Assembly (NCBI GenBank): GCA_000002445.1
Contig: CP000067.1
Location: 256,001 to 320,000 of the forward strand
DNA from: Trypanosoma brucei
Lineage: Eukaryota
DNA length: 64,000 nt
Direction: 5' to 3'
A model generated the notes under the pieces. The model searched no databases. It was not told the origin of the DNA and worked only from the letters and a program-made list of their open reading frames with translations. Shown here piece by piece: positions 15,299 to 64,000 of this stretch. Numbering within the stretch: position 1 is the first letter of the stretch; each line of letters opens with the position of its first letter. A program made the translations under genes and the position numbers.

Positions 15299-18200
15299 CC
15301 CCTTAAATATTCAAGTGCCCCTTTTCCTCGCCTCGCGTCCACCACGCCTCAGGGAGCACTTAAAGAGAAAATTAAAACGAAAGAAAAAAAAAAAGGGAAA
15401 ACGGTGCGCCAATATAATTGGTACTCAAAAAAAAAAAGAAATGTGGTGTACAGACATATGTTTATATACACACATACATGCATTTATTTTGAAATAAAAA
15501 GAATGAAAAGATTAGAAAGGATTAGAAAAGAGAAAGGAGTAAGGTAAAGAAAAATAAAAATAAAAATAGAGAAGAGAAGACAGAAAAGACAGAAAAAAAC
15601 CCTGTGACTTATAACAAAGTACGTTCGTTAACCTCAGTAATGCACTAGGGTTCCATTTCTAGTAGTTTTTTTTTCCTTTTTTTTTTTGCTTTCCTCCTAA
15701 TTTCATTTTACTCTGACATGTAGTCGTTTCACTGTCCTCCCCCCTCCCCTCCCACATACCTTTTCCTTTCTTTCTTTTTTTTTTCCTCCCTCCCCCCTTT
15801 CCCTTCAGTTGCTCAGCGCATCTAAACAATACCACACACAGACACATAGCTTTAGTTTCTCCACACATTTACACAATTGTTTGCGCCATTGAAGGCTCTT
15901 TCATGCATCTGCATTAATGTTGCGAACACCCCCACAACGTGGGAACAAAATAACGGATGGAAGTGGTAATAATAATAATTATTATTATTATTATTATTAT
16001 TTAAAAAGAAAAGAAAGCAGTGAGGGAAGTGACAGCCGAGTGAGTGGCAATGGCGTGGCCGGTAGGCAAAACAATTTTGAGTTTCGGAATCTCCACCACT
16101 CGATTGTGTTGTCACCATTTCCTTCCAAAGTAAAAATTAAACAAAAAAGTGTTGTTGTTTTTTTTTTCTTCCATCATTCCGCCATTTCGATAGGGGGAGT
16201 CACAGACACACAAGAGCCGGCAATATGGCATTTGTTTTGTGGTGGTTATTGTGGTTGTTGTTTACTGCCTCCACATGTGTGGCAGTAAAGGAAAAAAAAG
16301 GGAAAAAGAAGAAGAAAGAAGAAGGAAGAAGGAATAAGGAATAAGGAAGGAAAAGAAAAAAGAAAAAAGAAAAAAAAACATCCTCACTTTTCCTCCACAC
16401 GAAAGCAAAACTGGCAATCCACGAGAAAACATGAGCCTCACATCTGAAAGATGTGAGTTCAAATAAAACAATTGCGCTTGCAACAAAACCCCGAACCAGC
16501 GGGGTTTCGTTACAAATGCGCATTGAAAAGGTATGGCAAAACGAAAAAAGAAAAGAAAAGAAAAGAAAAGAAAAGAGAAAAGATATGGACTGAAATGAGT
16601 TGACACACGGATGACTAGGGATGATAAATAAACAACTGCAACGGTTTTGATAAAACGACACGTGTTCTTTATGGACTTTTTTTTCTTTTCTTGCTTTTTT
16701 TGAAAGTTTGCCACTTATCGTTGGTTGTTGTTTCTTCATTTATTTATTCTTTTTTTTTTCCTCTCTTGGTTGTCCCGTCTTTCCGCACATCACATCTTGT
16801 TGTTCATTCCGCCACATCTCCACACACTCCTTTTGTTTTCCCTGAGTTATTGTTGTTGCTGTTGTTGTTGCTATATTATTATTGTTGTTATTACTATTAT
16901 TTCACATTTTTTTTCTTTTTAAACTACTTCCGTTTTCTTACGATTTCTTGGCTTTTTATTTTATTACATTTTATTTCATTTCATTTTTACCTCTTTTGTA
17001 CACTCTACCACACCTTTTCTTTTCTTTCCTTTTGTACTCTCACAATATCACCTCTACTTATTCCTTTCTTCAAACCACGGCAGAGGAAAACATGACACGA
17101 CAAATAATGAAATAAAATTAAGTTAACGATATAATTATATGAAGAAAAAAAAAAGAAAAAAAATGACGAGTTGACGCTGTGAAAAATCTACGAGGGAATG
17201 TCAAACAGCCGCTAAACTCAGTCCTCTCATTTGCCTGACGGGGAAACAAAAATGTGACGTGCATGAAAAAAAAAAAACAAAAAAAAAAGAAAATGAAAAT
17301 GAAAATGAAAAAGTGAAAACAAATGTTGGTAAAATAAATCATCGGACCCCGTCTTCATTTTAATTATCTTTATTATTATTATTGTTTTTTTTTACCGCTG
17401 CTGTTATTGTTATCAATAAGAAAAAGCACGCCGTGGTGATAAAAAAGAAAAAAAAGTGAGAGTAGAAGTAGAAAAAAAAAAAAATAAAACAACAACAACG
17501 TCAACAACAACAACAAAAAGAGGGAGAGGAGGTTTGATCAGCTGGCGGAAGAAAAAGTTGGGATCAAATTAAGATAACTTTCAAAAAAGAAAAAAAAAGA
17601 GAGAGGGGGAAAGGAAGGAAGGGAAATAAATAAATAAATGAGGGAGAGAAAGGGGGAAAAAAAAAAGAGAGAAAAGAGAAAAGGGAAGGAGAAGGAGAAG
17701 GGAAGGAAAAAGAAAAGAAAAGAAACTCCCATTCCCATTTACTTCACTTCATCACTGGCTTACTCACTTTACATGTGCGGTAATGTAAATATAAATACAT
17801 GTATAGACACATAAAGGAGTGCGGATACCCATACGGATATTCATACAGAAATAATATAAAGATAAACAAGATCGGTACATTGGTCTCATTCATCCACTTA
17901 CTCAATTTATTTATTTATTTGACTTTTGGTGACAACTGCGCGTTCATGGAGAAGAGGAAATCATGCAGTTTGAAGTGATGGAATTTTTTAAAAAAAAAAG
18001 CGGAGGTGCGTCCCATTTGACAAAAACATAACTCCTCACATTTTTTTTTTAAAAATGCTATTATTCTGTGGAGTTTTCTCCACCGAGGCCGAAGGATTAT
18101 TGATCATGGAAGAATTTGAAGAAATGGTGCACAATAATAATAATAAGTGATGGAAATGATGAAAAGGTGGGAAAACTTTAGAAAGAGGGCAGACAAATCC

Positions 18201-38224: not shown

Positions 38225-39604
38225 CTACGAGGCTGAGGAGCATGCAAGCAAGAACAATGAATAATACGCGAAAAGCGGCATTGCAGCTACGGCAGGCAAT
38301 TTCTCTGTTGCCGAATCTGCTTTCCCCCCGCGCGACCCCTCCGTGCACGACTTTATGTCCTCCCACTTTACCCTTGTCATGGTACACGATATAAGATTCC
38401 GGCACCACGTGTTGCAGGTACCCTTGGGAAACAGTTTACCACTTGCCTTGCCGCCGCCGCTCCGTAACCGGATCCAGCGCCTCCATAGGAAGCTGTTGAC
38501 TCGAAATTTTGTAGCGAACGCGGTGAGCGCCTCTGTACTAGATAAATTCCCGACGGTTGACTCTACGTCCGGCGCCCTCCTCCACGTCGTTTTATCCAAG
38601 TAGTGATGGCGAAGGCTCTTCAGCTTCATAGTCACGTCATCAAGCTCTGCAATGAAGTAAGATGGAACATTCCCATACAAAGGCGTCAGTGACGGGATTG
38701 TAAAAGACATTATGTCAGGTCCAGCCACCTGGTATAAAAAGTGGTGAATGTGTCCGAAAATTTGCGACACCACGACACTCGCATGTTTCGCCACCAGTGC
38801 GTGGTAGCGCTCCTGAAACGAGGGTTTCCAATACATATCCTTTTCAACGGAACCGAAGGCCCCCCTGCTGAGCACGCCCCAAACGTCGATGTATGGTGGC
38901 ACGTGACTTATGATTATTACCTTCGCATTCTCCTTTTTCGCGTCTTCCAAGCTGGACTCAAGGAACTTCATCTGGTGGCATGGATCAACAACAGTGTCCG
39001 GAATAGGAACTTTGTTACAAAAACACCAGAGGACAGTGTTGAGCACAATGATCCGTAGGCGAGGTGAAACAACACGCTGATAGTACCCACATTCCCGGAA
39101 ACTTTTCCTTTGGCCCTCAGCCAAAAGGCCATTTTCCACCAATATTTCTTCCTGTTTCAGGGTGAAACTCTCCTGCTTAAATGCATCAAAGTGGTAGTTT
39201 GGCACCATATCGTTGTTTCCGAGGGAGACCGCCACACCCAGTCCGAACTCCCCTGTCTCGCCCGATTGTACAGTTTTAACCGCGGCCCGCACAATAAAGC
39301 CGAACGTGTCATTAATAGAAAACCCGCTTTTGCTGAATTTGTGTCGCTGAGCATCACCGTTGACAATAACAACATGAGGTGCTTGAGCCTCCATGTCCTG
39401 TTGAAATGATGTAATGAGTGCTTTTGGGGCATCGCAGCCCATCCGACCGTACTTGGGTGCGGGTTTGTGGCAAGAGTCGTATGCCTTAGACGTACCGTAC
39501 CCAGGGTCGTAGTGCGGATCTGATACCAACCCCACTCTCAAGGCACTACCGCCGCAAAGCGAAACAGCGGCGAAGACTAGAAGTAGTGGAAGGGCATCCA
39601 GCAT
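38225..39604 (-). CDS. calcineurin-like metallophosphoesterase, acid-sphingomyelinase-like (SMPDL3-like), with signal peptide and GPI-signal-like C-terminus
   Basis: Metallophosphoesterase motifs in order: GLVSDPHYD, VVIVNGDAQRH, VSLGNNDM, IIVLNTVLW, VIIISHVPP. N-terminal signal peptide. C-terminus ends in a hydrophobic stretch with no tail (KADSATEKLPAVAAMPLFAYYSLFLLACSSAS). Confidence 0.65.
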   Translation of the reverse strand: MLDALPLLLVFAAVSLCGGSALRVGLVSDPHYDPGYGTSKAYDSCHKPAPKYGRMGCDAPKALITSFQQDMEAQAPHVVIVNGDAQRHKFSKSGFSINDTFGFIVRAAVKTVQSGETGEFGLGVAVSLGNNDMVPNYHFDAFKQESFTLKQEEILVENGLLAEGQRKSFRECGYYQRVVSPRLRIIVLNTVLWCFCNKVPIPDTVVDPCHQMKFLESSLEDAKKENAKVIIISHVPPYIDVWGVLSRGAFGSVEKDMYWKPSFQERYHALVAKHASVVVSQIFGHIHHFLYQVAGPDIMSFTIPSLTPLYGNVPSYFIAELDDVTMKLKSLRHHYLDKTTWRRAPDVESTVGNLSSTEALTAFATKFRVNSFLWRRWIRLRSGGGKASGKLFPKGTCNTWCRNLISCTMTRVKWEDIKSCTEGSRGGKADSATEKLPAVAAMPLFAYYSLFLLACSSAS

Positions 39605-40343
39605 TTACTTTCTCACGTTACCTCGTCTTTTGATATGGTCTCTACGTATTTACCCTCTCTGATGATGTGGTTGAAACGTTCCAATCGCTATGCTCCAACG
39701 AAACGGAATGGAAAGAAGTGAGAAAAGATACGGAAGGCAAATGTTAAAGGGAACAAACATCAGGATAAAACTGACGACGAGCATATACACAAGACAGCCG
39801 CCAGTAACAGGCTCCGAAAGCATGCAGACCGTTGGTACGCACGCCACAGTTATTCTATATCACCTCCGCACGTTAAAAGTTCGCTCGACATCCACAGAAA
39901 CAAAGTAAGAGAAAAATAAAGAGAAGCGAGGATGGGAAAAAAATCAAAAAAAAAACTAAAGAGCCATGTACAAATGTCGCACCATGCTTCGATGCGGTAG
40001 TGACAAGTGGTACCCTGCTCTTTTGCACCCCCATTGTCGTTGCTGACTTTTGTTCCAACATCCGCCAGGTCTGCATCGGGCCTTCGGCAAAAATATCATG
40101 AGCTTCCGCACGAAACCCAGAATCAGCGTGTCTTTTGGCAAGGCAACTGCGGTCCCAAAGTAACTGTAGTGACATATCAAGACGAATAAACTACGTCAGA
40201 GAGTCAGAAAAGATGGCAAAAATGGGGTTGGAGATCGTCGAGTAAATATTCCGGGACTGATCTCCTTGTGTACGTCAAAGGACCGTCTCGGAGCGCAAAC
40301 TATCCAACACGAGGGGATACCTCCCCATTCTTTTTTCCTCAAC

Positions 40344-41870
40344 TCAATTGTAAACCTTTTGTGCGCGGGTTGAAAACAGCCGTTGCGTAACCTCACGTTC
40401 TGCCCCCGGAGGAGGGGAAAAAATAATCCGCCTGCTTCCAAAACCGTACGTCAGGGCCGCAACTAACGCCAAGCCGCCACTGCATGCGGAAATTATTGAC
40501 AGCCAAACCCCGAGGCTTCGAGACGGCAATACAGACGTAGTGCAGTAGTCAATGTCCGTCTTCTCGTAATATACCGAAGCACATATAATAAGGTGGCGGC
40601 ACCAAAAACCACAATGCTCCTTTTCAGTTAGATAGCGACCACCAGCCCGCATCCTTGAAAAAGGTTCCCAATGTGCCTCACTTTGCGCAATGGTTAGATA
40701 ATCCTCCACAGAGTATTCATTCATCCCCCTGAGCGAAACGTGGAGAATGTCTTCCAATTTGTCTCCATAAACCCATGAACCGTTCTCTACCAGATATCGC
40801 TGCTGCAACGAAACCACCCGCCCAGTGTTACTGTCGAGCGTAGCCCGTATGTAGGATGGATTGCTTCCCGCAACCGGGGAAACCGATGGAATTATGTACA
40901 TCGGAGGACCCAGCTTAGATGATGCTACAAATCCCAGTGTACCAGTATGAAAAAACTGCGCTGCGACGGTGAAGCGGTTACTGCCAATGATGCGAAGATA
41001 GGCCTCCCGAAAGTCGTTGCGCCAATAGTAGGTTGCATCTCCAACACTTTTCATACGTACCGCCTCCTCAACATTGAGTATGGGAGGTTCGTTACCCAAT
41101 ATTATAACACTGCGGTCCCGCTGCTTTGCCCATTCAATGGATGCCTGAAGGAATGGAAATTGCCCACACGGATCAACATCCCCAACGCTAAGAGGTGGTC
41201 TCAATGAGTTTGACCACAGTAATGTGTTGAGGACAATTACTCGAATCTTTGTTCCGGCTACATCACGATAGTAAAAGCCACAGTAAGACATGTGTGAATG
41301 TTCCTCTCTTGTAAGCAGACCTTCGCTTAACATAAGACGCAACAGTTGTACGTACTGGGGTTGGGCACTAATGGGGCTGAAACTGTTAGCAGGGGAAAGG
41401 TCATTACCTCCCAGTGCCAAAACTGTTGGTTGTGATGCAGCATCCTGCGTGCCGTTTACCCCTGATGCAGAGGCAATCACACCTATCACCTCCTTCATTG
41501 TGTACTCCATTTCCGCGGGGGTAACCGTTTCCATGCTGTGGCGCATAAGACCACCAGAAAAGAGAGTGAAAGTCCCCTCCCATTTTGCTACGTCATCCAT
41601 AACGGACTGAACGAGCTTCAGTGGAGATTCACAGCCCGGGGTGACGAGTGACGCCTGCCCTTGGTTGCAAGGTCCGTACCCACCGGGTCGGCCATAGAGT
41701 ATATCGTAATTAAAGTCACCAAGTAAGGAAACAGTCAACTTCGGCAGCGTATCACGACCCAACACGCTGGTAGCGGAGGCTCTGAGCACTAATTGATGTA
41801 GTAAATCGGGCGCAATGGTCAGCGCACATACACTAAGGAAAATAACAAAGAGCGTGCAACACCTCTCCAT
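40344..41870 (-). CDS. calcineurin-like metallophosphoesterase, paralog of 38225..39604, with signal peptide and C-terminal TM helix plus cytoplasmic tail
   Basis: Collinear motifs with the neighbour: LLGDFNYD, VIVLNTLLW, VDPCGQFPFLQASIEWAKQ (against VDPCHQMKFLESSLEDAKK) and VIILGNEPP. C-terminal TM helix plus about 30-aa tail. ORF-track start 41876 is GTG; ATG at 41870. Confidence 0.65.
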   Translation of the reverse strand: MERCCTLFVIFLSVCALTIAPDLLHQLVLRASATSVLGRDTLPKLTVSLLGDFNYDILYGRPGGYGPCNQGQASLVTPGCESPLKLVQSVMDDVAKWEGTFTLFSGGLMRHSMETVTPAEMEYTMKEVIGVIASASGVNGTQDAASQPTVLALGGNDLSPANSFSPISAQPQYVQLLRLMLSEGLLTREEHSHMSYCGFYYRDVAGTKIRVIVLNTLLWSNSLRPPLSVGDVDPCGQFPFLQASIEWAKQRDRSVIILGNEPPILNVEEAVRMKSVGDATYYWRNDFREAYLRIIGSNRFTVAAQFFHTGTLGFVASSKLGPPMYIIPSVSPVAGSNPSYIRATLDSNTGRVVSLQQRYLVENGSWVYGDKLEDILHVSLRGMNEYSVEDYLTIAQSEAHWEPFSRMRAGGRYLTEKEHCGFWCRHLIICASVYYEKTDIDYCTTSVLPSRSLGVWLSIISACSGGLALVAALTYGFGSRRIIFSPPPGAEREVTQRLFSTRAQKVYN

Positions 41871-42828
41871 GGTCACCTACAACACGATACCTGACCTTTT
41901 CTTTACGTACTTTCCTACCACTGTCCACCACCAAAGGGCAGCACCGAGAGGACGGCGAAACTCAAGAAAAAGAAGAGCATTGGGAGGTACACAAAAACAG
42001 CGGCATGGGAAGGAACTCAACTGTTATGAGAGCAAAGCTAAAGAGTCGGGAGTACTGCCACCCACATTTGGGAACCGCGCCAGTACTCCACACCAACTGC
42101 CACGAGTGTGCAACGAATTCAAAACGACGAATAAAAAGTGGCTTTGTCTACGAGGCAAAAGAGTCGTTACGAAAATGACTCCAAACGTACCAAAGTCCCA
42201 CTCAGCAGCAGTACTACATAGGGGGGAGTGCGTGGAAGTAACTCAAAAAGCTGCAACCTTCCACTCACGCGAGCCAAGCTACAAAATGAGCACTTCCGAT
42301 TTTACACTGGGTCGCACAAAAGACCTAAAATGGTGCCCCAAAGTCATCGAGATAATCGGCTACAGCGTGAACAAGCACGCATCCCGAAGTGCGCCGATAT
42401 CCGGCACATGCCCTCGTCTACCCAGATCCTTCGCTTTTGCCACGTCGATGTGCAGTGGCATGCCACCAACAGTTCCCACACGAATGTGCACCGACCAAGA
42501 CTGCACCAATCAGGTCGCACCCTGGGTAAATAACCGACGCTAGGCCCACACGAAAACACACGCATACACGTGTAACAGCAAAGAACGTTAGGTAAGCATA
42601 CACTGTGGCGGGAAGAGAAATAGGGAAAGGCAGGCACGCGCTACCGTTGCATAAGCCGGATAATAAGCTTATCTCCTTTTCAGTGAATATAAGTGGCAAA
42701 AAAGCTTGTTACAACATGTGACTAAAAAGAGCAATTAAACAGCGATAAAAACAATGCGCAACGCGGTGGTGAAATGTAAGCGTACATGAATCCGGGGATC
42801 GCAGAAGCACCGAAGGTGGTCCCCAAAA

Positions 42829-43326
42829 TCATTTACTAAAGTCCTCAGCGTCAGCCCCCATCTCACCCTCCAACAACTCGTTGGAGTTGTCCACGCCGCC
42901 CATCACGCCGTAGTTCGCGCTTCCCTCTGAAATCCTCCCAGTCCGTGGGTTCACTGGATGGTCATACATAGAATCGAGGTCCGCCGCGTAGGGCACGCCA
43001 CTTTCCTGCAAGGATCCCTGCATTTTGTGAACGGGTCGGGGGTATGGAATGCGATAATGCACTCCAAGCTCGTAGCGCATTTCCGCCTCACGCAGCTTCC
43101 GCTGTATCATTTCCACGTCGGTAAGTCGAGCATTTTGACGAAACAGCCGCCTTGACTCCTCCATCACATACAACGCATCGTCGTCCGTCTCCCATGGTAC
43201 CGTGAAAGCCGCTTTAAGAAACTTTCGGTACCAGGAAAGAGCCTGTGAGCGATACGGGTTGTTGCACAGTACGGCCCCTGCAGCCTCATACGGCATCCCT
43301 AAAACACACGGTGTCTTGCTATACAT
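42829..43326 (-). CDS. LYR-motif protein (Complex1_LYR family; NDUFB9/NDUFA6-like)
   Basis: LYR/LYK signature ALSWYRKFLKAAF near the N-terminus, then a helical segment and HYRIPYPRP, as in complex I LYR subunits. Confidence 0.5.
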   Translation of the reverse strand: MYSKTPCVLGMPYEAAGAVLCNNPYRSQALSWYRKFLKAAFTVPWETDDDALYVMEESRRLFRQNARLTDVEMIQRKLREAEMRYELGVHYRIPYPRPVHKMQGSLQESGVPYAADLDSMYDHPVNPRTGRISEGSANYGVMGGVDNSNELLEGEMGADAEDFSK

Positions 43327-50803: not shown

Positions 50804-53530
50804 TCACGACCATTTTTTAAGGAAAGGGTTGACGAGCACGTCCGGGTCGTCTGAAGAATCCCTCTTCCCCTCGACGACAGGAGGTATATCGCCACCCCAA
50901 ACGTGTCTCGTGGGCTGCGGAGAACCAGCTTGGTGACGCTGCGTGAAGTTCAGTGGCGCTGCGGGATACCCCGCGCTTGCTGCCGTTGGTGGTTTTGGAT
51001 GTGCTAACGAAGTCTTACTGGGCCCCATGCTTAGCTGTTTCACGGCAGAAGTTGGAACGGGCGCAAGATTCACCACAGGGGGCAGTGGGGCCGACACGCC
51101 TGCTGCAGCACCCGGAAATAGTTCCGCGGGACCACTCTGTGGTCCACCTTTAATAGGGTGGACTTCAGCCGCCTGATCTCCATGATGCTGCAGGTTCGTT
51201 GAAACCCTTCCAGCACATTGGAATTGCACTTCATTCGCTGATACCCTTTCCGTTTTAAAGTGTCTCCTTTGCTTCCAGCATTGTTGCAAAAATCCAGACG
51301 CGCTGACAGCAACAATACTAATAACTGTGAAAAAAAGTGTGCTCATATTTATCGAAGACGTTTCGCCTCCGTAAGTTCCCACATCACCACCAGCGAACGG
51401 GTTAGCATCGAGGGTTTGAGACTGCCCTGGAGCAGGTGTATTGCCGTGACTATCACCTACAGTGGTATTATCACTGGCGGTACAGCGGCAACCACCAACC
51501 GAAAAATCAGACTTATCTCGACCCCCTTGAACTGCTTCGTCGGTTAATCCAACAGTGTCCACGATTTTCGCCACAACCTGCCTAAGCTTCATAACACCTT
51601 CACGGCACTCGGGCACCAATTGATTCTGAACAACGCAGCGCCCCCTCATATTATACACATCGTCACCAATCAGGCTGGCGAGTGCGCTCGCGTCGTCAGC
51701 CAACTGCTTCAAAAGCACAACAAAATCCGTTCCATCCTCTCTGGTCTCTTCTAAAGAGACCTTGCCATCCCTCTCATAACGTTTCTGCAACTCAGTTTCA
51801 TCATCATCAGGTTGCTGTGGCTCAGCTTCATTATCATCAGGTTGCTGTGGCTCAGCTTCATTATCATCAGGTTGCTGTGGCTCAGTTTCATTATCATCAG
51901 GTTGCTGTGGCTCAGTTTCCTTATCATCAGGTTGCTGTGGCTCAGCTTCATTATCATCAGGTTGCTGTGCCTCAGTTTCCTTATCATCAGGTTGCTGTGC
52001 CTCAGTTTCATTATCATCAGGTTGCTGTGGTTCAGTTTCCTTATCATCAGGTTGCTGTGCCTCAGTTTCCTTATCATCAGGTTGCTGTGCCTCAGTTTCC
52101 TTGTCATCAGGTTGCTGTGCCTCAGTTTCCTTATCATCAGGTTGCTGTGGTTCAGTTTCCTTATCATCAGGTTGCTGTGCCTCAGTTTCCTTATCATCAG
52201 GTTGCTGTGCCTCAGTTTCCTTGTCATCAGGTTGCTGTGCCTCAGTTTCCTTATCATCAGGTTGCTGTGCCTCAGTTTCATTATCATCAGGTTGCTGTGG
52301 TTCAGTTTCCTTATCATCAGGTTGCTGTGCCTCAGTTTCCTTATCATCAGGTTGCTGTGCCTCAGTTTCCTTGTCATCAGGTTGCTGTGCCTCAGTTTCC
52401 TTATCATCAGGTTGCTGTGCCTCAGTTTCATTATCATCAGGTTGCTGTGCCTCAGTTTCATTATCATCAGGTTGCTGTGGCTCAGTTTCCTTATCATCAG
52501 GTTGCTGTGCCTCAGTTTCATTATCATCAGGTTGCTGTGCCTCAGTTTCATTATCATCAGGTTGCTGTGCCTCAGTTTCATTATCATCAGGTTGCTGTGC
52601 CTCAGTTTCCTTATCATCAGGTTGCTGTGCCTCAGTTTCCTTATCATCAGGTTGCTGTGGCTCAGTTTCCTTGTCATCAGGTTGCTGTGCCTCAGTTTCA
52701 TTATCATCAGGTTGCTGTGCCTCAGTTTCATTATCATCAGGTTGCTGTGCCTCAGTTTCCTTATCATCAGGTTGCTGTGCCTCAGTTTCCTTGTCATCAG
52801 GTTGCTGTGCCTCAGTTTCCTTGTCATCAGGTTGCTGTGCCTCAGTTTCATTGTCATCAGGTTGCTGTGGTTCACTTTCATTATCATCAGGTTGCTGTGC
52901 CTCAGTTTCCTTATCATCAGGTTGCTGTGCCTCAGTTTCCTTATCATCAGGTTGCTGTGGTTCACTTTCATTATCATCAGGTTGCTGTGCCTCAGTTTCC
53001 TTGTCATCAGGTTGCTGTGCCTCAGTTTCATTGTCATCAGGTTGCTGTGGTTCACTTTCATTATCATCAGGTTGCTGTGCCTCAGTTTCCTTATCATCAG
53101 GTTGCTGTGCCTCAGTTTCCTTATCATCAGGTTGCTGTGGTTCACTTTCATTATCATCAGGTTGCTGTGCCTCAGTTTCCTTGTCATCTGGCGGCTTTAC
53201 ACGAGCTGATCCATTGGTGGTGTGTGCTGCATCCCTCTCCTCTTCGTTGTGGTTTTTGGCTCTCATCACTTGGCTGCCGCGGCCCACGTTGTTCTCGTCC
53301 GCCTCCTGACGTCCTTGGGCGCCAGTCTTGAGCTGAGTATCGGTTCTGTGGAGGCCGCCATCGCCTTCGACAGGAAACCGAGGTGCTCTGTTGCTTCTGC
53401 GCACTGCTTTCAATGTCCGTGCCTCGCCCACTTTACCTGTGTTAGCGTGTGCTATACAAGTAGAACACCAGCCTGCAACGCATGACACAACGGTTAACAG
53501 AAGTATCTTTGCGGTGTGGAGATGACGCAT
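50804..53530 (-). CDS. repetitive acidic type I membrane (surface) protein: signal peptide, about 47 copies of a QQPDD(K/N)E(T/S)E(A/P) decapeptide, an about 150-aa domain, TM helix, and a Pro-rich cytoplasmic tail
   Basis: ATG at 53530. N-terminal signal peptide MRHLHTAKILLLTVVSCVAGWCSTCIAHA. TM helix LFFTVISIVAVSASGFLQQCW at about residue 735. It is the only one of six open frames across the repeat with a signal peptide, a TM helix and the strand of the gene array. Confidence 0.75.
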   Translation of the reverse strand: MRHLHTAKILLLTVVSCVAGWCSTCIAHANTGKVGEARTLKAVRRSNRAPRFPVEGDGGLHRTDTQLKTGAQGRQEADENNVGRGSQVMRAKNHNEEERDAAHTTNGSARVKPPDDKETEAQQPDDNESEPQQPDDKETEAQQPDDKETEAQQPDDNESEPQQPDDNETEAQQPDDKETEAQQPDDNESEPQQPDDKETEAQQPDDKETEAQQPDDNESEPQQPDDNETEAQQPDDKETEAQQPDDKETEAQQPDDKETEAQQPDDNETEAQQPDDNETEAQQPDDKETEPQQPDDKETEAQQPDDKETEAQQPDDNETEAQQPDDNETEAQQPDDNETEAQQPDDKETEPQQPDDNETEAQQPDDNETEAQQPDDKETEAQQPDDKETEAQQPDDKETEAQQPDDKETEPQQPDDNETEAQQPDDKETEAQQPDDKETEAQQPDDKETEAQQPDDKETEPQQPDDKETEAQQPDDKETEAQQPDDKETEAQQPDDKETEPQQPDDNETEAQQPDDKETEAQQPDDNEAEPQQPDDKETEPQQPDDNETEPQQPDDNEAEPQQPDDNEAEPQQPDDDETELQKRYERDGKVSLEETREDGTDFVVLLKQLADDASALASLIGDDVYNMRGRCVVQNQLVPECREGVMKLRQVVAKIVDTVGLTDEAVQGGRDKSDFSVGGCRCTASDNTTVGDSHGNTPAPGQSQTLDANPFAGGDVGTYGGETSSINMSTLFFTVISIVAVSASGFLQQCWKQRRHFKTERVSANEVQFQCAGRVSTNLQHHGDQAAEVHPIKGGPQSGPAELFPGAAAGVSAPLPPVVNLAPVPTSAVKQLSMGPSKTSLAHPKPPTAASAGYPAAPLNFTQRHQAGSPQPTRHVWGGDIPPVVEGKRDSSDDPDVLVNPFLKKWS
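51791..53190. repeat. tandem array of about 47 near-identical 30-bp units (consensus plus strand ttatcatcaggttgctgtgcctcagtttcc)
   Basis: Directly visible in the sequence. Units differ at 3-4 positions only (c/a, g/c, a/g), which gives the K/N, T/S and A/P alternations. All six frames are open across it. Confidence 0.95.
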
Positions 53531-61984: not shown

Positions 61985-62059
61985 CACCGCGTCAGGGGCG
62001 ATAATTAATATACTTCTGGGTGCCACCTAAATTTCCACGTTCAGTCGTTGTTGACATTT

Positions 62060-62236
62060 GTTCAGGTGAGGCGATGCCGGCCACCTCAACGTGGTGCCAT
62101 GGTCCAGTACCCCGTATCATCGGGGGAAGCCAAGAGCCAGCAGCATTCCTTTCATGGGGAACAATGCTTTGCTTTTGCAACGGCACCGAGCAGCACTGAG
62201 ATGAGCCGCGCCGTGATGGAGAACATTTTTTTTTTG
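62060..62236 (+). ncRNA. candidate Pol III small RNA, divergent from the tRNA-Pro and ending in a T9 run (speculative)
   Basis: The stretch lies about 80-250 nt upstream of the tRNA 5' end on the opposite strand. GC-rich with hairpins (ccacctcaacgtgg; ccccgtatcatcgggg) and ends ...gagaacattttttttttg (T9 at 62227-62236). In T. brucei, Pol III snRNA-type genes pair with a divergent upstream tRNA whose A/B boxes act as the promoter. No match to a small RNA I can recall. Confidence 0.15.
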
Positions 62237-63467
62237 TAGAGCCCTGGGCACGTGTTCTCGTGCTATCGGCAGTTTGTTCTATGAATCACTGATTTGTTTC
62301 CGTTGGACTGATAAGTGTTCATGAGGCAATTTTCACCTTGCAGTGGCAGCTGTAGTCTCTCGACTGAGTGAAAGATGTGTGTGAGTTTGTCGTCCGAAGC
62401 GAAAAGGTGATGTAGTTGGCGGCGCTTAATGAAATAGCTGCGGTGCTGTTGACTGTTCCTCATGCGTGGAACGGGCGTAAAGCGGCATTTAAGAGGGTGC
62501 TGCATGTTTGATGTGTTTTCACTTCCGGAATAATTCGGTGGTGGCGTAGACGTACTACTATGTTTGTTGCAGCGGCCGTAGCGCTGAGTTATTGCACCGG
62601 TCAAGAAGTAGAACTAGAGCACGGGGAAAATGAAAAACCAGTAGTTTTGTGCTCAGGCGTATACCCAAAGTGTTCCGTATGTGTTGAGTAGGATAAACGG
62701 AGAAAAAAATGGATGAGAGCGTGGCGTTCACCAGAGTGGGTGCAATTAGAGGGTCCCCGAACTAACGGTTAAAAAATATATCACTTTTCCAGGTTGTCAC
62801 AGGAGTTTTGTCACATGAGCCCGCTATGTGCAGCCCCTAAGCATCAAGGGAAGAATCTTTGTAAGTATAGGAACACCGATCGTAATAAATGGGCGCAGAG
62901 ACTGCCGGTGTTGTTGAGTTCTAGATTAAGGTAAACACAAGTTTTTAATTCCGAGCACGAAGTGTGTTGTAATTGAAGGGTATGTATCATTTATAGTGTG
63001 TGCTACTGGGTGTTTCTCACGCACAAGAAATACTTTGTTGATACCACAAAATCAAGAATACTGTAGTCTTTTTCCTCACGGAATGTAGAAAAATCGAAGG
63101 TGAATGCAAGGTCGTCACTTTAGCGTATACAATGGTTTCATCTCATTTTTTATCTTTCTTTTACTGACCTGGAAATAACGCTTTTGTTACCCCGGAGTCA
63201 GATGATAGGTGGGCCTTTCAGGGAGACGGGGAACAAATACAATGCAAGTGGAGATGACAAGGGTGTGGTAGATGAATGATTCGCAATATGGGGGGAACTT
63301 GCGGTAAATTTACTATCTCTTGTACAGGTGTTGGTTGTATGATCGTACTTAGTATTGTGGAAGTGTTTTTTTTTCACCATTGTTTTGTACGTGTTGTATC
63401 TGTTGTTGTTGGGTGGTAAAGTGTTTATATTTTGTTTTTTGTGTGTTTGGGTAGGGAATTGTAGGTA

Positions 63468-64000
63468 ATGAAAGTCAAGATTATAGAATGGTTGGTCTTC
63501 CTATCTTTTGTTATTTATACCGAAGGGGCCGAAGACGAAGGTCGCTGCAGACTGGTAGATGATCATTCTTTTAAAAATTTACATGAATCCGTATGCTATC
63601 TCAGCTGCCTTTCGGATGCACTAAACAAATTATACACCAATGGAGAGAGGAAGTTGCTTGTGAATGAGGAAGTATATGCGAACGCATCTCGTATATTGGA
63701 TGATATGGAAGGGAGAGCAGGTGAAAGTGTCAAATATTTGAGTGTTATTAGTGATGCAATGGGAGGGAAACATGATAAATTGGAAAAACTTATATCTTAT
63801 GGAAATACAATGGGAGACCTGGTGGCTAAGGTAGGTGGATTATTTGCTGATGTTAATGAAAGTGTGAGGGTGGTGAGAGAGCTGTTGCCCACTGCCCTCA
63901 TGGAAGCAAATAGATACTATACGGCCAGTGCAGAAATTACAAGGACTGTGTGGGATGATGTTAAGGCGGTAGAGGGCAGCGACGAGGAAGCTGCAAAGTG
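63468..64000 (+). CDS. N-terminal part of a secreted/surface-type protein (signal peptide plus helical ectodomain), running past the window end
   Basis: ATG at 63468, preceded by a T/G-rich tract and AG (..gtagggaattgtaggtaATG). Predicted signal peptide MKVKIIEWLVFLSFVIYTEGAED. 177 codons with no stop. AT-rich third codon positions, unlike the upstream genes. The helical, Cys-poor sequence resembles ectodomains of trypanosome surface protein families. Confidence 0.5.
   Translation, partial: MKVKIIEWLVFLSFVIYTEGAEDEGRCRLVDDHSFKNLHESVCYLSCLSDALNKLYTNGERKLLVNEEVYANASRILDDMEGRAGESVKYLSVISDAMGGKHDKLEKLISYGNTMGDLVAKVGGLFADVNESVRVVRELLPTALMEANRYYTASAEITRTVWDDVKAVEGSDEEAAK

What the first reader, a model, noticed from the sequence alone, without database searches (positions are those of the whole stretch)
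38225..41870. Tandem, anciently duplicated acid-sphingomyelinase-like metallophosphoesterases with different membrane anchors
Two adjacent genes encode the same metallophosphoesterase motif series (D-x-H, GD, GNxD/GNE, VxVLNTxLW, HxPP). They have diverged to about 30% identity. Both have signal peptides. The first ends in a hydrophobic tail with small residues upstream (KADSATEK then LPAVAAMPLFAYYSLFLLACSSAS), as in a GPI-anchor signal. The second has a TM helix plus a 30-residue cytoplasmic tail. This suggests subfunctionalisation of a secreted or lumenal phosphodiesterase between two membrane contexts, for example surface or flagellar pocket against endo-lysosomal.
Basis: partly seen in the sequence, partly recalled or inferred. 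Interest (0 to 1): 0.5.

Follow-up and report, generated by a model that had tools for sequence, protein, structure and literature searches.

The report
Live and dead SMPDL3-like gene pair
Two neighbouring Trypanosoma brucei genes descend from one acid-sphingomyelinase-like phosphodiesterase, but only the first (a GPI-anchored bloodstream-surface protein) still has its metal-binding catalytic site; the second is an ancient, catalytically dead, membrane-spanning copy that is better conserved than the live one, so it must do something other than catalysis.

Summary
The window is T. b. brucei TREU927 chromosome 4. Both ORFs are real, on the minus strand, in tandem and 28% identical (E 7e-49). By sequence profile and predicted fold both belong to the acid-sphingomyelinase-like (SMPDL3A/B-type) phosphodiesterases, including the C-terminal helical subdomain. 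P1 (38225-39604, Tb927.4.1110) keeps all 7 metal ligands. P2 (40344-41870, by position Tb927.4.1120) keeps 2 of 7, and its orthologues keep 0-3. The "GNE" read as motif III in P2 aligns to the lost motif IV His. P2 is still more conserved than P1 in 21 of 21 species pairs (61% against 52%), so it is a selected pseudoenzyme and not a decaying gene. A syntenic dead-then-live pair in a more distant kinetoplastid contig, together with bootstrapped trees, puts the duplication before the genus. Angomonas, Phytomonas and Novymonas have only the live copy. The GPI idea for P1 was already published: big-PI, FragAnchor and PredGPI are all positive, and the protein is strongly enriched in the bloodstream-form surface proteome. 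New here: P1 orthologues outside African trypanosomes have a TM helix plus cytoplasmic tail, so the GPI signal arose by loss of that tail in Salivaria. What P2 does is not known; a prozyme-like partner role is possible but untested.

The parts
38225..39604 (-). P1 coding sequence (459 aa plus stop) = Tb927.4.1110 / XP_844261 / UniProt Q580D9. SMPDL3-like metallophosphoesterase with an intact di-metal site.
   Evidence: ORF. Exact match to TREU927 accessions. Published qPCR primers for Tb927.4.1110 map at 39031-39053(-) and 38538-38559(+) with no mismatch. PDB phmmer SMPDL3B 9e-15. AF2 pLDDT 87.8. Foldseek SMPDL3B E 1.5e-29, TM 0.83.
39542..39604 (-). P1 signal peptide (aa 1-21, MLDALPLLLVFAAVSLCGGSA).
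   Evidence: Hydrophobic maximum KD10 2.92 at residue 7. Published SignalP probability 0.999 and signal peptide positive. The cleavage site itself is inferred.
39506..39523 (-). P1 motif I, SDPHYD (metal ligands D29, H31).
   Evidence: Aligned to SMPDL3B 'SDLHLD'. Invariant in 8 Trypanosoma P1 orthologues.
39341..39361 (-). P1 motif II, NGDAQRH (bridging Asp D84; R87 and H88 invariant in both paralogue groups).
39206..39223 (-). P1 motif III, LGNNDM (ligand N130; N131 sits where the ASM family has the catalytic His of GNHD).
   Evidence: Aligned to SMPDL3B 'LGNHDF'. GNND is the norm in this clade: 108 of 164 sequences.
38894..38911 (-). P1 motif IV, ISHVPP (ligand H234).
   Evidence: Aligned to SMPDL3B 'IGHVPP'.
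38741..38758 (-). P1 motif V, FGHIHH (ligands H285, H287).
   Evidence: Aligned to SMPDL3B 'FGHHHT'.
38345..38416 (-). P1 cysteine cluster of the C-terminal helical subdomain (C397, C401, C407, C420).
   Evidence: Cysteines invariant or nearly invariant across both groups. They align with SMPDL3A 'CDKTCKAFQIC...C'.
38228..38323 (-). P1 GPI-attachment signal: small-residue omega region KADSATEK (38300-38323; D-S-A is the likeliest omega triplet) plus a terminal hydrophobic tail LPAVAAMPLFAYYSLFLLACSSAS (38228-38299).
   Evidence: No residues follow the hydrophobic segment and its hydrophobicity is moderate, KD17 1.86. big-PI and FragAnchor positive. PredGPI 1-FPrate = 1 with 0 TM helices. The exact omega site is inferred.
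39605..40343 (-). 739-bp intergenic spacer with a long polypyrimidine tract, the usual kinetoplastid signal region for trans-splicing and polyadenylation. The two genes should give separate mRNAs.
   Evidence: Sequence read. The function of the tract is inferred from established kinetoplastid mRNA processing.
40344..41870 (-). P2 coding sequence (508 aa plus stop) = XP_844262 / UniProt Q580E0, Tb927.4.1120 by position. SMPDL3-fold pseudoenzyme and type I membrane protein.
   Evidence: ORF. Accessions. No Pfam hit. PDB phmmer SMPDL3B 3.5e-8. AF2 pLDDT 80.6. Foldseek SMPDL3B E 1.5e-26, TM 0.78-0.80.
41772..41870 (-). P2 long N-terminal signal sequence (aa 1-33, ending RASA).
   Evidence: Hydrophobic maximum KD10 2.96 at residue 7. 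A small residue at -1 and A/V at -3 recur in orthologues: ASA, VSA, VQA, VDA. Cleavage is inferred.
41703..41723 (-). P2 degenerate motif I, LGDFNYD (the His ligand is Asn; the Asp varies D/G/N between species).
41538..41558 (-). P2 degenerate motif II, SGGLMRH (the bridging Asp is Gly in 7 of 8 species and Ser in one; R110 and H111 are retained).
41397..41414 (-). P2 degenerate motif III, LGGNDL (the ligand Asn is Gly).
   Evidence: Aligned to SMPDL3B 'LGNHDF'.
41082..41099 (-). P2 degenerate motif IV, LGNEPP (the ligand His is Asn; Asp in the other species).
   Evidence: Aligned to SMPDL3B 'IGHVPP' and to P1 'ISHVPP'.
40938..40955 (-). P2 degenerate motif V, FFHTGT (no GHxH; the second His is lost in all species).
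40434..40514 (-). P2 transmembrane helix (aa 453-479).
   Evidence: KD17 2.05 and a 28-residue uncharged segment. Helical in the AF2 model. Present in all orthologues.
40347..40433 (-). P2 cytoplasmic tail (aa 480-508, net +4) with conserved elements: F-x-PP just after the membrane, then GR-x-RLF.

Best explanation
The locus encodes a live/dead pair of SMPDL3-type (acid-sphingomyelinase-like) metallophosphoesterase paralogues.

P1 (Tb927.4.1110) is the live member. It enters the secretory pathway through a signal peptide and folds into the SMPDL3 catalytic domain plus C-terminal helical subdomain. It keeps all seven ligands of the two-metal centre and is attached to the outer leaflet by a GPI anchor. 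It is found at the bloodstream-form cell surface, where it most likely hydrolyses an extracellular phosphodiester or phosphoanhydride. The substrate is unknown; nucleotides or phosphocholine-type head groups are the precedents in the family. Its GPI signal is a derived feature of African (salivarian) trypanosomes, made by losing the cytoplasmic tail of an ancestral type I TM anchor.

P2 is the dead member. It has the same fold, disulfide cysteines and topology, with a lumenal or extracellular ectodomain, one TM helix and a conserved 29-aa cytoplasmic tail. Its metal site is dismantled in every species, so it cannot catalyse metal-dependent hydrolysis. Because it is under stronger purifying selection than P1, it must have a non-catalytic job. 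I commit to a binding or adaptor role in the secretory/endocytic membrane system, in which the ectodomain binds something and the conserved tail connects to cytoplasmic sorting machinery.

Shown here: fold, family, ligand status, conservation, topology features, surface detection of P1, age of the duplication. Inferred: catalytic activity of P1, actual GPI attachment, any function of P2. My estimates are about 0.85 that P2 is catalytically dead and functional, about 0.3 that its bound partner is P1 (prozyme-like), and about 0.5 that it acts independently of P1.
For: Family and fold: the profile aligns end to end with SMPDL3A/B (E ~1e-34, profile 35-431 against chain 11-413 of 418) and more weakly with ASM (1e-18). 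Foldseek puts SMPDL3B/3A/ASM top for both models, with the next folds 15 or more orders of magnitude worse.

Ligands: P1 keeps 7 of 7 in 8 species; P2 keeps 0-3 of 7 in 8 species. In P2 the former ligand columns are conserved no better than average (0.51 against 0.62, p=0.18), whereas in P1 they are invariant.

Selection: the P2 ectodomain is more conserved than P1 in 21 of 21 matched species pairs (61.3 against 51.6%), with 131 against 94 invariant columns. P2 is an intact ORF in at least 9 Trypanosoma lineages.

Age: metagenome contig L004 is syntenic and carries a degenerate copy followed by an intact copy in the same order. Its RPL21, V-ATPase A and LYR genes are more distant from T. brucei than those of Angomonas or Phytomonas. 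Bootstraps: TrypP2 with the L004 dead copy 88.5%; independent-duplication topologies 1% or less; TrypP1 with other trypanosomatid P1 excluding P2 82.5%.

P1 anchor and location: big-PI, FragAnchor and signal peptide positive. Surfeome enrichment 1419 with 5 peptides, PredGPI 1-FPrate 1, 0 TM helices. The tail-less hydrophobic end occurs only in T. brucei, T. congolense and T. vivax; TM plus tail elsewhere.
Against: No enzymology exists for either protein. P1 has Asn where the ASM family has its catalytic His (GNND in place of GNHD), so its rate or mechanism may differ from SMPDL3A/B. This Asn is the norm in the clade, alongside fully conserved metal ligands.

The GPI anchor is predicted, not demonstrated chemically.

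The transcript study reported P1 mRNA as not detected in bloodstream forms, which conflicts with the protein's detection in the bloodstream-form surface proteome.

P2 orthology to the outgroup's dead copy could be inflated by long-branch attraction. From the Tb_P2 side, the outgroup's intact gene scores slightly better than its dead one (1e-49 against 8e-40).

P2 was not detected in the surface-proteome tables, so its location and even its expression as protein are not established here. R110, H111 and D157 next to the old site remain invariant in P2, so some residual pocket function cannot be excluded.
Confidence: 0.75

Rival explanations
1. Prozyme model. P2 is a catalytically dead partner that forms a heterodimer with P1 through the dimer interface used by this family. 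It would activate, stabilise or sort P1, and its TM helix and conserved cytoplasmic tail would give the GPI-anchored enzyme a link to cytoplasmic trafficking machinery.
For: P2 is a dead paralogue of a live enzyme, conserved and always found together with P1 in Trypanosoma and in the L004 organism. Mammalian SMPDL3A and SMPDL3B have been crystallised as dimers (PDB titles 8w6p and 9k2e). Trypanosomatids repeatedly use dead paralogues as activators: AdoMetDC (PMC5201418), DHS (PMC3663545), PRMT1 (bioRxiv 10.1101/776112) and editosome RNase III pairs (PMC9508840).
Against: Angomonas, Phytomonas and Novymonas have the intact P1-type gene alone at the syntenic site, with no remnant of a second copy, so the enzyme does not need P2 in general. 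P2 is absent from the surface-proteome tables in which P1 is highly enriched.
Confidence: 0.3
2. Both genes encode active phosphodiesterases, and the ancestral activity has been divided between a GPI-anchored surface form and a TM-anchored endo-lysosomal form.
For: Both keep the SMPDL3 fold and the secretory topology. The anchors differ in T. brucei. R110, H111 and D157 near the site are retained in P2.
Against: P2 lacks the motif II Asp, motif III Asn, motif IV His and second motif V His in all species, and T. vivax P2 keeps none of the seven ligands. The replacement residues differ between species. Pfam Metallophos gives no hit. The anchor contrast is recent and limited to Salivaria.
Confidence: 0.05
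3. P2 is a decaying gene relic with no function, kept only because it sits inside a polycistronic unit.
For: Loss of catalytic residues. No protein detected in the bloodstream-form surface-proteome tables.
Against: Full-length intact ORF in at least 9 Trypanosoma lineages and an outgroup. More conserved than its live paralogue in 21 of 21 comparisons. Conserved cysteines, TM helix and tail motifs. A confident fold prediction.
Confidence: 0.03
4. The C-terminus of P1 is not a GPI signal. It is a TM anchor with no cytoplasmic tail that stays in the mature protein.
For: It is derived from an ancestral TM helix. No chemical evidence for the anchor was found.
Against: Three independent predictors call GPI, and TMHMM TM helices. 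The segment is only moderately hydrophobic (KD17 1.86, against 2.75-3.7 for the TM helices of orthologues). It contains prolines and small residues, ends the protein, and is preceded by a D-S-A small-residue triplet. Mammalian SMPDL3B is GPI-anchored (PMC4508342).
Confidence: 0.1
5. The dead copies in Trypanosoma and in the L004 organism arose by independent tandem duplications followed by parallel decay. In that case the Trypanosoma pair would be genus-specific.
For: Tb_P2 scores slightly better against L004's intact gene than against its dead gene. Fast-evolving sequences can attract each other in distance trees. The three sampled non-Trypanosoma trypanosomatids have a single copy.
Against: Same gene order (dead upstream, live downstream) within the same syntenic block. 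Shared lesions: GS/GG at motif II, GVTD identical to T. vivax at motif III, GN at motif IV. Bootstrap 88.5% for a common dead clade against 1% or less for the independent topologies, and 0-5% for an exclusive TrypP1+TrypP2 group.
Confidence: 0.15

Closest known systems
Mammalian SMPDL3B (acid sphingomyelinase-like phosphodiesterase 3b; PDB 5kar, 9k2e)
   Same: Best sequence and fold match for both proteins. Same architecture: signal peptide, metallophosphoesterase domain, C-terminal helical subdomain with conserved cysteines, and no saposin domain. Like P1 it is GPI-anchored at the cell surface (PMC4508342).
   Different: Only about 20-23% identity. P1 has GNND where SMPDL3B has GNHD, so it lacks the catalytic His. 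P2 lacks the metal site entirely and is TM-anchored. The substrates of the trypanosome proteins are unknown.
Mammalian SMPDL3A (secreted nucleotide phosphodiesterase; PDB 5ebb, 5ebe, 5fc1, 8w6p)
   Same: An equally strong profile match (E 1.4e-34, end to end) and fold match, including the cysteine pattern of the C-terminal subdomain.
   Different: SMPDL3A is soluble and secreted, with no membrane anchor, and it has the canonical GNHD.
Acid sphingomyelinase (SMPD1/ASM; PDB 5i81, 5jg8, 5fi9)
   Same: Same catalytic fold and C-terminal subdomain.
   Different: ASM has an N-terminal saposin domain and linker, which both trypanosome proteins lack: motif I starts at residue 28 of P1, directly after the signal peptide. 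The profile match is much weaker (1e-18 against 1e-34).
Trypanosomatid prozymes (AdoMetDC prozyme, DHS dead paralogue, PRMT1 prozyme)
   Same: A catalytically dead paralogue of a live enzyme, retained under selection in trypanosomatids (PMC5201418, PMC3663545, 10.1101/776112).
   Different: Those are cytosolic or nuclear enzymes whose heteromeric complexes and activation have been demonstrated. Here no interaction has been shown, the proteins are extracytoplasmic with different membrane anchors, and the live enzyme exists alone in other trypanosomatids.
Vps29 (retromer subunit with a metallophosphoesterase fold) - from my own knowledge, not tested here
   Same: A precedent for a calcineurin-like phosphoesterase fold that serves as a non-catalytic scaffold in membrane trafficking.
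   Different: It is a cytosolic, small, single-domain protein, not related to the ASM-like subfamily. It did not appear among the fold matches listed.

Membership tests
Acid-sphingomyelinase-like phosphodiesterases (SMPDL3A/B type) | Calcineurin-like metallophosphoesterase catalytic fold | tested here: met
   Foldseek against the PDB: P1 E 1.5e-29, TM 0.83; P2 E 1.5e-26, TM 0.78-0.80 to SMPDL3B/3A. The next fold class is at about 1e-10 or 1e-9.
Acid-sphingomyelinase-like phosphodiesterases (SMPDL3A/B type) | C-terminal helical subdomain with conserved disulfide cysteines | tested here: met
   The profile aligns to SMPDL3A residues 11-413 of 418, including 'C..WCR..I.C...C' against 'CDKTCKAFQIC...C'. 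The cysteines are invariant in both groups. Pfam's separate C-terminal model gave no hit at E<=1, so this rests on the profile-PDB and fold alignments.
Acid-sphingomyelinase-like phosphodiesterases (SMPDL3A/B type) | Seven ligands of the di-metal centre (D, H; D; N; H; H, H) | tested here: met
   This row is for P1: 7 of 7 in T. brucei and in 7 other Trypanosoma species. P2 has its own row below.
Acid-sphingomyelinase-like phosphodiesterases (SMPDL3A/B type) - P2 as an active member | Seven ligands of the di-metal centre | tested here: not met
   P2 keeps 2 of 7 in T. brucei and 0-3 of 7 across 8 species. The motif II Asp, motif III Asn, motif IV His and second motif V His are lost in all. P2 shares the fold and ancestry but should not be filed as an enzyme of this family.
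Acid-sphingomyelinase-like phosphodiesterases (SMPDL3A/B type) | Catalytic His in motif III (GNH[D/E]) | tested here: not met
   P1 has GNND and P2 has GGND. Among the 164 closest relatives, 108 have GNND, 15 GNED, 12 GNDD and only 3 GNHD. The trypanosome genes therefore belong to a distinct sub-clade with a different residue at this position.
Acid-sphingomyelinase-like phosphodiesterases (SMPDL3A/B type) | No saposin domain (separates the SMPDL3 type from ASM proper) | tested here: met
   Motif I begins at residue 28 (P1) and residue 50 (P2), directly after the signal sequences. The profile E-value is 1e-34 for SMPDL3A/B against 1e-18 for ASM.
Acid-sphingomyelinase-like phosphodiesterases (SMPDL3A/B type) | Phosphodiesterase or phosphoanhydride hydrolase activity | not testable with these tools
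   This needs recombinant protein and substrate assays.
GPI-anchored proteins (P1) | N-terminal signal peptide plus a C-terminal omega region, spacer and terminal hydrophobic segment with no cytoplasmic residues | tested here: met
   Sequence features. Published big-PI, FragAnchor and SignalP positive. PredGPI 1-FPrate = 1 and TMHMM 0 helices. Gene identity was established by primer mapping.
GPI-anchored proteins (P1) | Chemical presence of the anchor (PI-PLC release, CRD epitope, lipid or ethanolamine labelling) | not testable with these tools
   No such experiment was found in the papers searched.
Pfam Metallophos (PF00149) | Score above the gathering threshold | tested here: met
   P1 scores 23.4 bits against a cut-off of 21.5, so it barely passes. 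P2 gives no hit at E<=1, so P2 does not meet this feature.
Prozyme-type pseudoenzyme (dead paralogue that activates the live enzyme) | A paralogue of a live enzyme that has lost catalytic residues and is retained under purifying selection | tested here: met
Prozyme-type pseudoenzyme (dead paralogue that activates the live enzyme) | Physical complex with the live paralogue and stimulation of its activity | not testable with these tools
Indirect evidence is mixed: the live gene stands alone in Angomonas, Phytomonas and Novymonas.
   No PPP phosphatase appears among the significant sequence matches or in the top 50 fold matches.

The most novel reading that the evidence does not exclude
P2 is a new kind of trypanosomatid 'prozyme': the first extracytoplasmic one. 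It would be a dead SMPDL3-fold subunit that pairs with the GPI-anchored live enzyme P1 and supplies a transmembrane helix and conserved cytoplasmic tail. A lipid-anchored surface enzyme would thereby become sortable and regulatable from the cytoplasm. The loss of P1's own TM helix and tail in African trypanosomes would have been possible because P2 already provided that link.
Probability: 0.2. Interest if true: 0.75.

Novelty: new variant of a known kind. Interest (0 to 1): 0.42.

Why it matters
P1 is one of the few invariant, non-VSG, apparently enzymatic proteins that have been experimentally enriched at the bloodstream-form surface of T. brucei, yet it is still annotated as hypothetical. 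Placing it in the SMPDL3 family gives it a testable biochemical function, such as scavenging of extracellular nucleotides or phospholipid head groups, or modification of host-derived phosphodiesters.

Its neighbour turns out to be a dead copy that is better conserved than the enzyme. That adds a candidate to the short list of trypanosomatid pseudoenzymes under selection, and it corrects database labels: the orthologues are widely called 'beta-fructofuranosidase-like'.

The change of P1 from a TM anchor to a GPI anchor specifically in African trypanosomes is a concrete example of how a conserved kinetoplastid membrane protein was refitted for a GPI-dominated surface coat.

None of this overturns current ideas. 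It is a useful, moderately interesting annotation result with one hypothesis that can be tested directly.

Tried and rejected
(1) Apparent loss of P1 in the T. cruzi clade. The word-indexed search returned no T. cruzi, T. rangeli or T. conorhini P1 orthologue. Fetching the T. cruzi locus showed an intact, tandemly duplicated P1-type gene, and T. rangeli P0024 appeared in the exhaustive search. The idea was rejected.

(2) The third named-database search, with a 39-sequence alignment, returned only the known P2 group because of the candidate cap. It added no information.

(3) Literature searches by UniProt or RefSeq accession and for 'acid sphingomyelinase-like' together with T. brucei found nothing relevant. 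The gene was found only after I guessed the Tb927 number from the neighbouring V-ATPase gene and confirmed it by primer mapping.

(4) Pfam gave no hit for the ASM C-terminal domain in either protein. Membership of that subdomain therefore rests on the profile-to-PDB alignment and on fold coverage.

(5) A PP2B-like or other phosphatase family assignment was considered and rejected.

(6) I considered that GNND in P1 might be a T. brucei lesion making P1 dead as well. This was rejected because it is the norm in the clade alongside fully conserved metal ligands.

(7) My first conservation calculation for the former ligand positions in P2 used two wrong residue numbers. It was redone correctly.

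(8) I could not run a heterodimer (multimer) prediction, a site-heterogeneous ML phylogeny, or a direct tblastn of Leishmania, Paratrypanosoma or Bodo genomes.

(9) The 100-aa ORF at 39873-40175 in the spacer and the plus-strand ORFs overlapping both genes were treated as chance ORFs and not pursued.

Full report
WHAT IS THERE. The window matches Trypanosoma brucei brucei TREU927 chromosome 4 exactly: both proteins are in the public collection as XP_844261/Q580D9 and XP_844262/Q580E0, on a 1,590,432-bp record. Two minus-strand ORFs lie at the stated coordinates. P1 is 38225-39604 (459 aa). P2 is 40344-41870 (508 aa from the ATG; an in-frame GTG two codons upstream is preceded by a stop). A 739-bp spacer with a long polypyrimidine tract separates them, as is usual between kinetoplastid genes. 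The two proteins are 28% identical over 434 residues, E 7e-49. The observation of a diverged tandem pair is therefore correct.

FAMILY. P1 alone matches SMPDL3B (9e-15), SMPDL3A and acid sphingomyelinase among solved structures. P2 matches the same set more weakly (3.5e-8). A profile of the trypanosome sequences aligns end to end with SMPDL3A/B (E about 1e-34; profile 35-431 against chain 11-413 of 418). This includes the C-terminal helical subdomain and its cysteines. The match to ASM proper is only about 1e-18. The AlphaFold2 models are confident (P1 pLDDT 87.8, P2 80.6). Foldseek puts SMPDL3B, SMPDL3A and ASM first for both (E 1e-29 to 1e-21, TM up to 0.83), and the next fold class (purple acid phosphatases and others) is at about 1e-10. 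Neither protein has a saposin domain; motif I follows the signal sequence directly. 'Acid-sphingomyelinase-like' is therefore right, and more exactly the architecture is SMPDL3-type.

THE MOTIF CLAIM IS WRONG FOR THE SECOND GENE. Residue-level alignments to SMPDL3B, the pairwise alignment and a 17-sequence alignment agree.
- P1 has SDPH (motif I), GD (II), GNND (III), SHVPP (IV) and GHIH (V). That is all seven ligands of the two-metal centre.
- P2 has GDFN, GG, GGND, GNEPP and FHTGT. It keeps 2 of the 7 ligands.
- Pfam Metallophos passes for P1 (23.4 bits, cut-off 21.5) and is silent for P2.
- Across eight Trypanosoma species, P1 keeps 7 of 7 ligands everywhere and P2 keeps 0-3 of 7 (none in T. 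vivax). The motif II Asp, motif III Asn, motif IV His and second motif V His are missing in every species.
- The residues that replace them differ between species. These columns are conserved no better than the ectodomain average (0.51 against 0.62; permutation p = 0.18), while in P1 they are invariant. The metal site of P2 has been abandoned and has not been rebuilt into something else. Three neighbouring residues (R110, H111, D157) do remain invariant.

P2 IS NEVERTHELESS UNDER STRONG SELECTION. Over the same seven species and the same ectodomain span, P2 is more conserved than P1 in 21 of 21 pairs (mean 61.3% against 51.6%), with 131 against 94 invariant columns. It keeps the family cysteines, a TM helix and a short basic cytoplasmic tail with conserved elements (F-x-PP after the membrane, then GR-x-RLF). 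It is a pseudoenzyme with a function, not a relic.

A PECULIARITY OF THE WHOLE CLADE. P1 has Asn where ASM-family enzymes have the catalytic His of GNHD. An exhaustive profile search found 4,578 representatives (612 at E <= 1e-30). Among the 164 closest sequences, 108 read GNND, 15 GNED, 12 GNDD and only 3 GNHD, and nearly all keep the seven ligands. The Asn is therefore a trait of the sub-clade and not a lesion. P1 is probably active, perhaps with a different proton donor or a preference for good leaving groups. That last point is inference.

AGE OF THE DUPLICATION. Synteny is conserved. T. cruzi and T. theileri have ...LYR - patatin - ~1000 aa - P2-type - P1-type - RPL21e - EMP70.... T. cruzi's P1-type is intact and duplicated in tandem together with RPL21e.

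A 22-kb metagenome contig (L004) has the same block. At the P2 position it carries a degenerate gene (DVQ, GS, GVTD, GNIP, GYYE; TM plus short tail). At the P1 position it carries an intact gene (DIH, GD, GNND, AHIPP, GHTH; TM plus tail). Its RPL21, V-ATPase A and LYR genes are further from T. brucei than those of Angomonas or Phytomonas, so it is probably an early-branching kinetoplastid.

In bootstrapped NJ trees:
- Trypanosoma P2 groups with the L004 dead gene in 88.5% of replicates.
- Topologies that imply independent duplications get 1% or less.
- Trypanosoma P1 groups with Angomonas, Novymonas and Phytomonas P1-type genes to the exclusion of P2 in 82.5%.
- An exclusive Trypanosoma P1+P2 group gets 0-5%.

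Angomonas, Phytomonas and Novymonas have only the intact gene at the syntenic site and no remnant of a second copy within 10 kb. The simplest reading is one duplication and inactivation before the trypanosomatid radiation, followed by loss of the dead copy on the Leishmania side. There are caveats. The trees are distance trees with long branches. From the Tb_P2 side, L004's intact gene scores slightly better than its dead gene. I put about 0.15 on independent origins.

THE ANCHORS. P2 has a TM helix (aa 453-479) and a 29-residue, net +4 tail in T. brucei, and the same layout in all orthologues.

P1 ends in a 24-residue, moderately hydrophobic, proline-containing segment with nothing after it, preceded by KADSATEK. 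Savage et al. 2012 list Tb927.4.1110 as positive for big-PI, FragAnchor and signal peptide, with a 'Metallo-dependent phosphatases' domain at residues 20-331. Their qPCR primers map inside P1 with no mismatch, which fixes the gene identity. Gadelha et al. 2015 list the same gene in their bloodstream-form 'Surfeome' with 9 PSMs, 5 peptides, 18.5% coverage and enrichment 1,419, among transferrin-receptor subunits, VSGs and ESAG2. They give SignalP 0.999, PredGPI 1-FPrate = 1 and 0 TM helices. P2 (Tb927.4.1120 by position.1080 is the V-ATPase and .1090 the EMP70 protein) is absent from those tables.

What is new here is the history of the anchor. P1 orthologues in T. cruzi, T. theileri, T. melophagium, T. 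grayi, an unnamed trypanosomatid and L004 have a strongly hydrophobic TM helix plus a 35-62-residue cytoplasmic tail. Only T. brucei, T. congolense and T. vivax have the tail-less end. These three group together in 73% of bootstraps. The GPI signal therefore arose in the salivarian lineage by loss of the tail. The contrast 'GPI against TM' does not go back to the duplication.

HOW IT MOST LIKELY WORKS.
- P1: a GPI-anchored, di-metal ecto-phosphodiesterase at the bloodstream-form surface or flagellar pocket. Its substrate is unknown; family precedents are nucleotides for SMPDL3A and lipid or phosphocholine-type substrates for SMPDL3B and ASM.
- P2: a type I membrane protein whose SMPDL3-fold ectodomain can no longer bind the catalytic metals. 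It should act by binding, with its conserved tail engaging cytoplasmic machinery.

Whether P2 binds P1 is open. In favour: the family dimerises in crystals (the 9k2e and 8w6p titles), trypanosomatids repeatedly use dead paralogues as activators, and P2 never occurs without P1. Against: P1-type genes work alone in three other trypanosomatid genera, and P2 was not co-detected with P1 at the surface. I put about 0.3 on the partner model and about 0.5 on an independent non-catalytic role.

NOVELTY AND SCORE. The genes, the GPI prediction for P1 and its presence at the surface are already in the literature. I did not find the SMPDL3-type assignment including the C-terminal subdomain, the dead status and stronger conservation of P2, the pre-genus age of the pair, or the TM-to-GPI switch in any paper searched. 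My searches cover open-access text only. This is a new variant within a known family, a conserved TM-anchored pseudo-SMPDL3 next to its live paralogue, and not a new kind of system. Interest is moderate (0.42). It would rise considerably if the prozyme-like partnership were shown.

UNEXPLAINED. The 2012 study did not detect P1 transcript in bloodstream forms and found it low and proventriculus-preferential. The 2015 study found the protein highly enriched in the bloodstream-form surface preparation. Strain or sensitivity differences, or translational control, could explain this. I could not resolve it.

Noticed in passing
window 51791-53188 (inside minus-strand ORF 50804-53530): A 30-bp tandem repeat, 46.6 copies at 94% identity, encodes a 10-residue acidic repeat (about AQQPDDKETE on the minus strand) within a 908-aa ORF. 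It also produces several long spurious ORFs on both strands.
   Followed up: no
window 16001-18000 and 62001-64000: GC content falls to 0.34 at 16-18 kb, against about 0.49 elsewhere. GC skew changes sign (+0.26) in the last 2 kb, while all large ORFs are on the minus strand. The second feature may mark the edge of the polycistronic unit or a strand-switch region.
   Followed up: no
L002 12279-21524 and L001 12206-21524 (T. cruzi): In T. cruzi the unit [P1-type gene - RPL21e - EMP70 fragment] is tandemly duplicated. The two P1-type copies are nearly identical and both have intact motifs plus a TM helix and a ~60-aa tail.
   Followed up: partly
window 41871-42828, compared with L002 4395-9255, L003 4211-9225 and L004 3640-9145: T. 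cruzi, T. theileri and the outgroup contig have a patatin-like gene and a ~900-1000-aa gene between the LYR-family gene and P2. In T. brucei, LYR (42829-43326) is directly upstream of P2, and neither patatin nor PfkB is found anywhere in the window by tblastn. This looks like a local rearrangement or deletion in the T. brucei lineage.
   Followed up: partly
Orthologues P0005, P0006, P0011, P0012, P0014-P0016, P0024, P0029: Orthologues of both genes are widely annotated 'beta-fructofuranosidase-like protein', although their sequence and fold are SMPDL3-like metallophosphoesterase. This appears to be a propagated misannotation.
   Followed up: partly
164 closest relatives (P0023-P0168 plus the Trypanosoma set): Almost the whole clade has Asn, Glu or Asp in place of the catalytic His of GNHD (108 GNND, 15 GNED, 12 GNDD, 3 GNHD) while keeping all seven metal ligands. 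This suggests a large uncharacterised ASM-like sub-clade with a modified catalytic mechanism.
   Followed up: partly
P0023 (EukProt gene model, 1027 aa): This gene model from an unidentified organism fuses two degenerate copies (GG/GA, G[PG]TD, GNIPP, GHTY) whose central ~250 residues are identical. It is either a recent tandem duplication of a dead copy or an assembly or annotation artefact.
   Followed up: no
Tb927.4.1110 = window 38225-39604: The published data disagree. The transcript was not detected in bloodstream forms and was low and proventriculus-preferential, but the protein was strongly enriched in the bloodstream-form surface proteome.
   Followed up: no
L004 12797-14674: In the outgroup contig, a 625-aa secreted cysteine-rich protein with C-terminal leucine-rich repeats, plus further small ORFs, lies between the P1-type gene and RPL21e. 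Several housekeeping genes there (RPL21e, V-ATPase A) are split by apparent frameshifts, which suggests sequencing errors in that contig.
   Followed up: no
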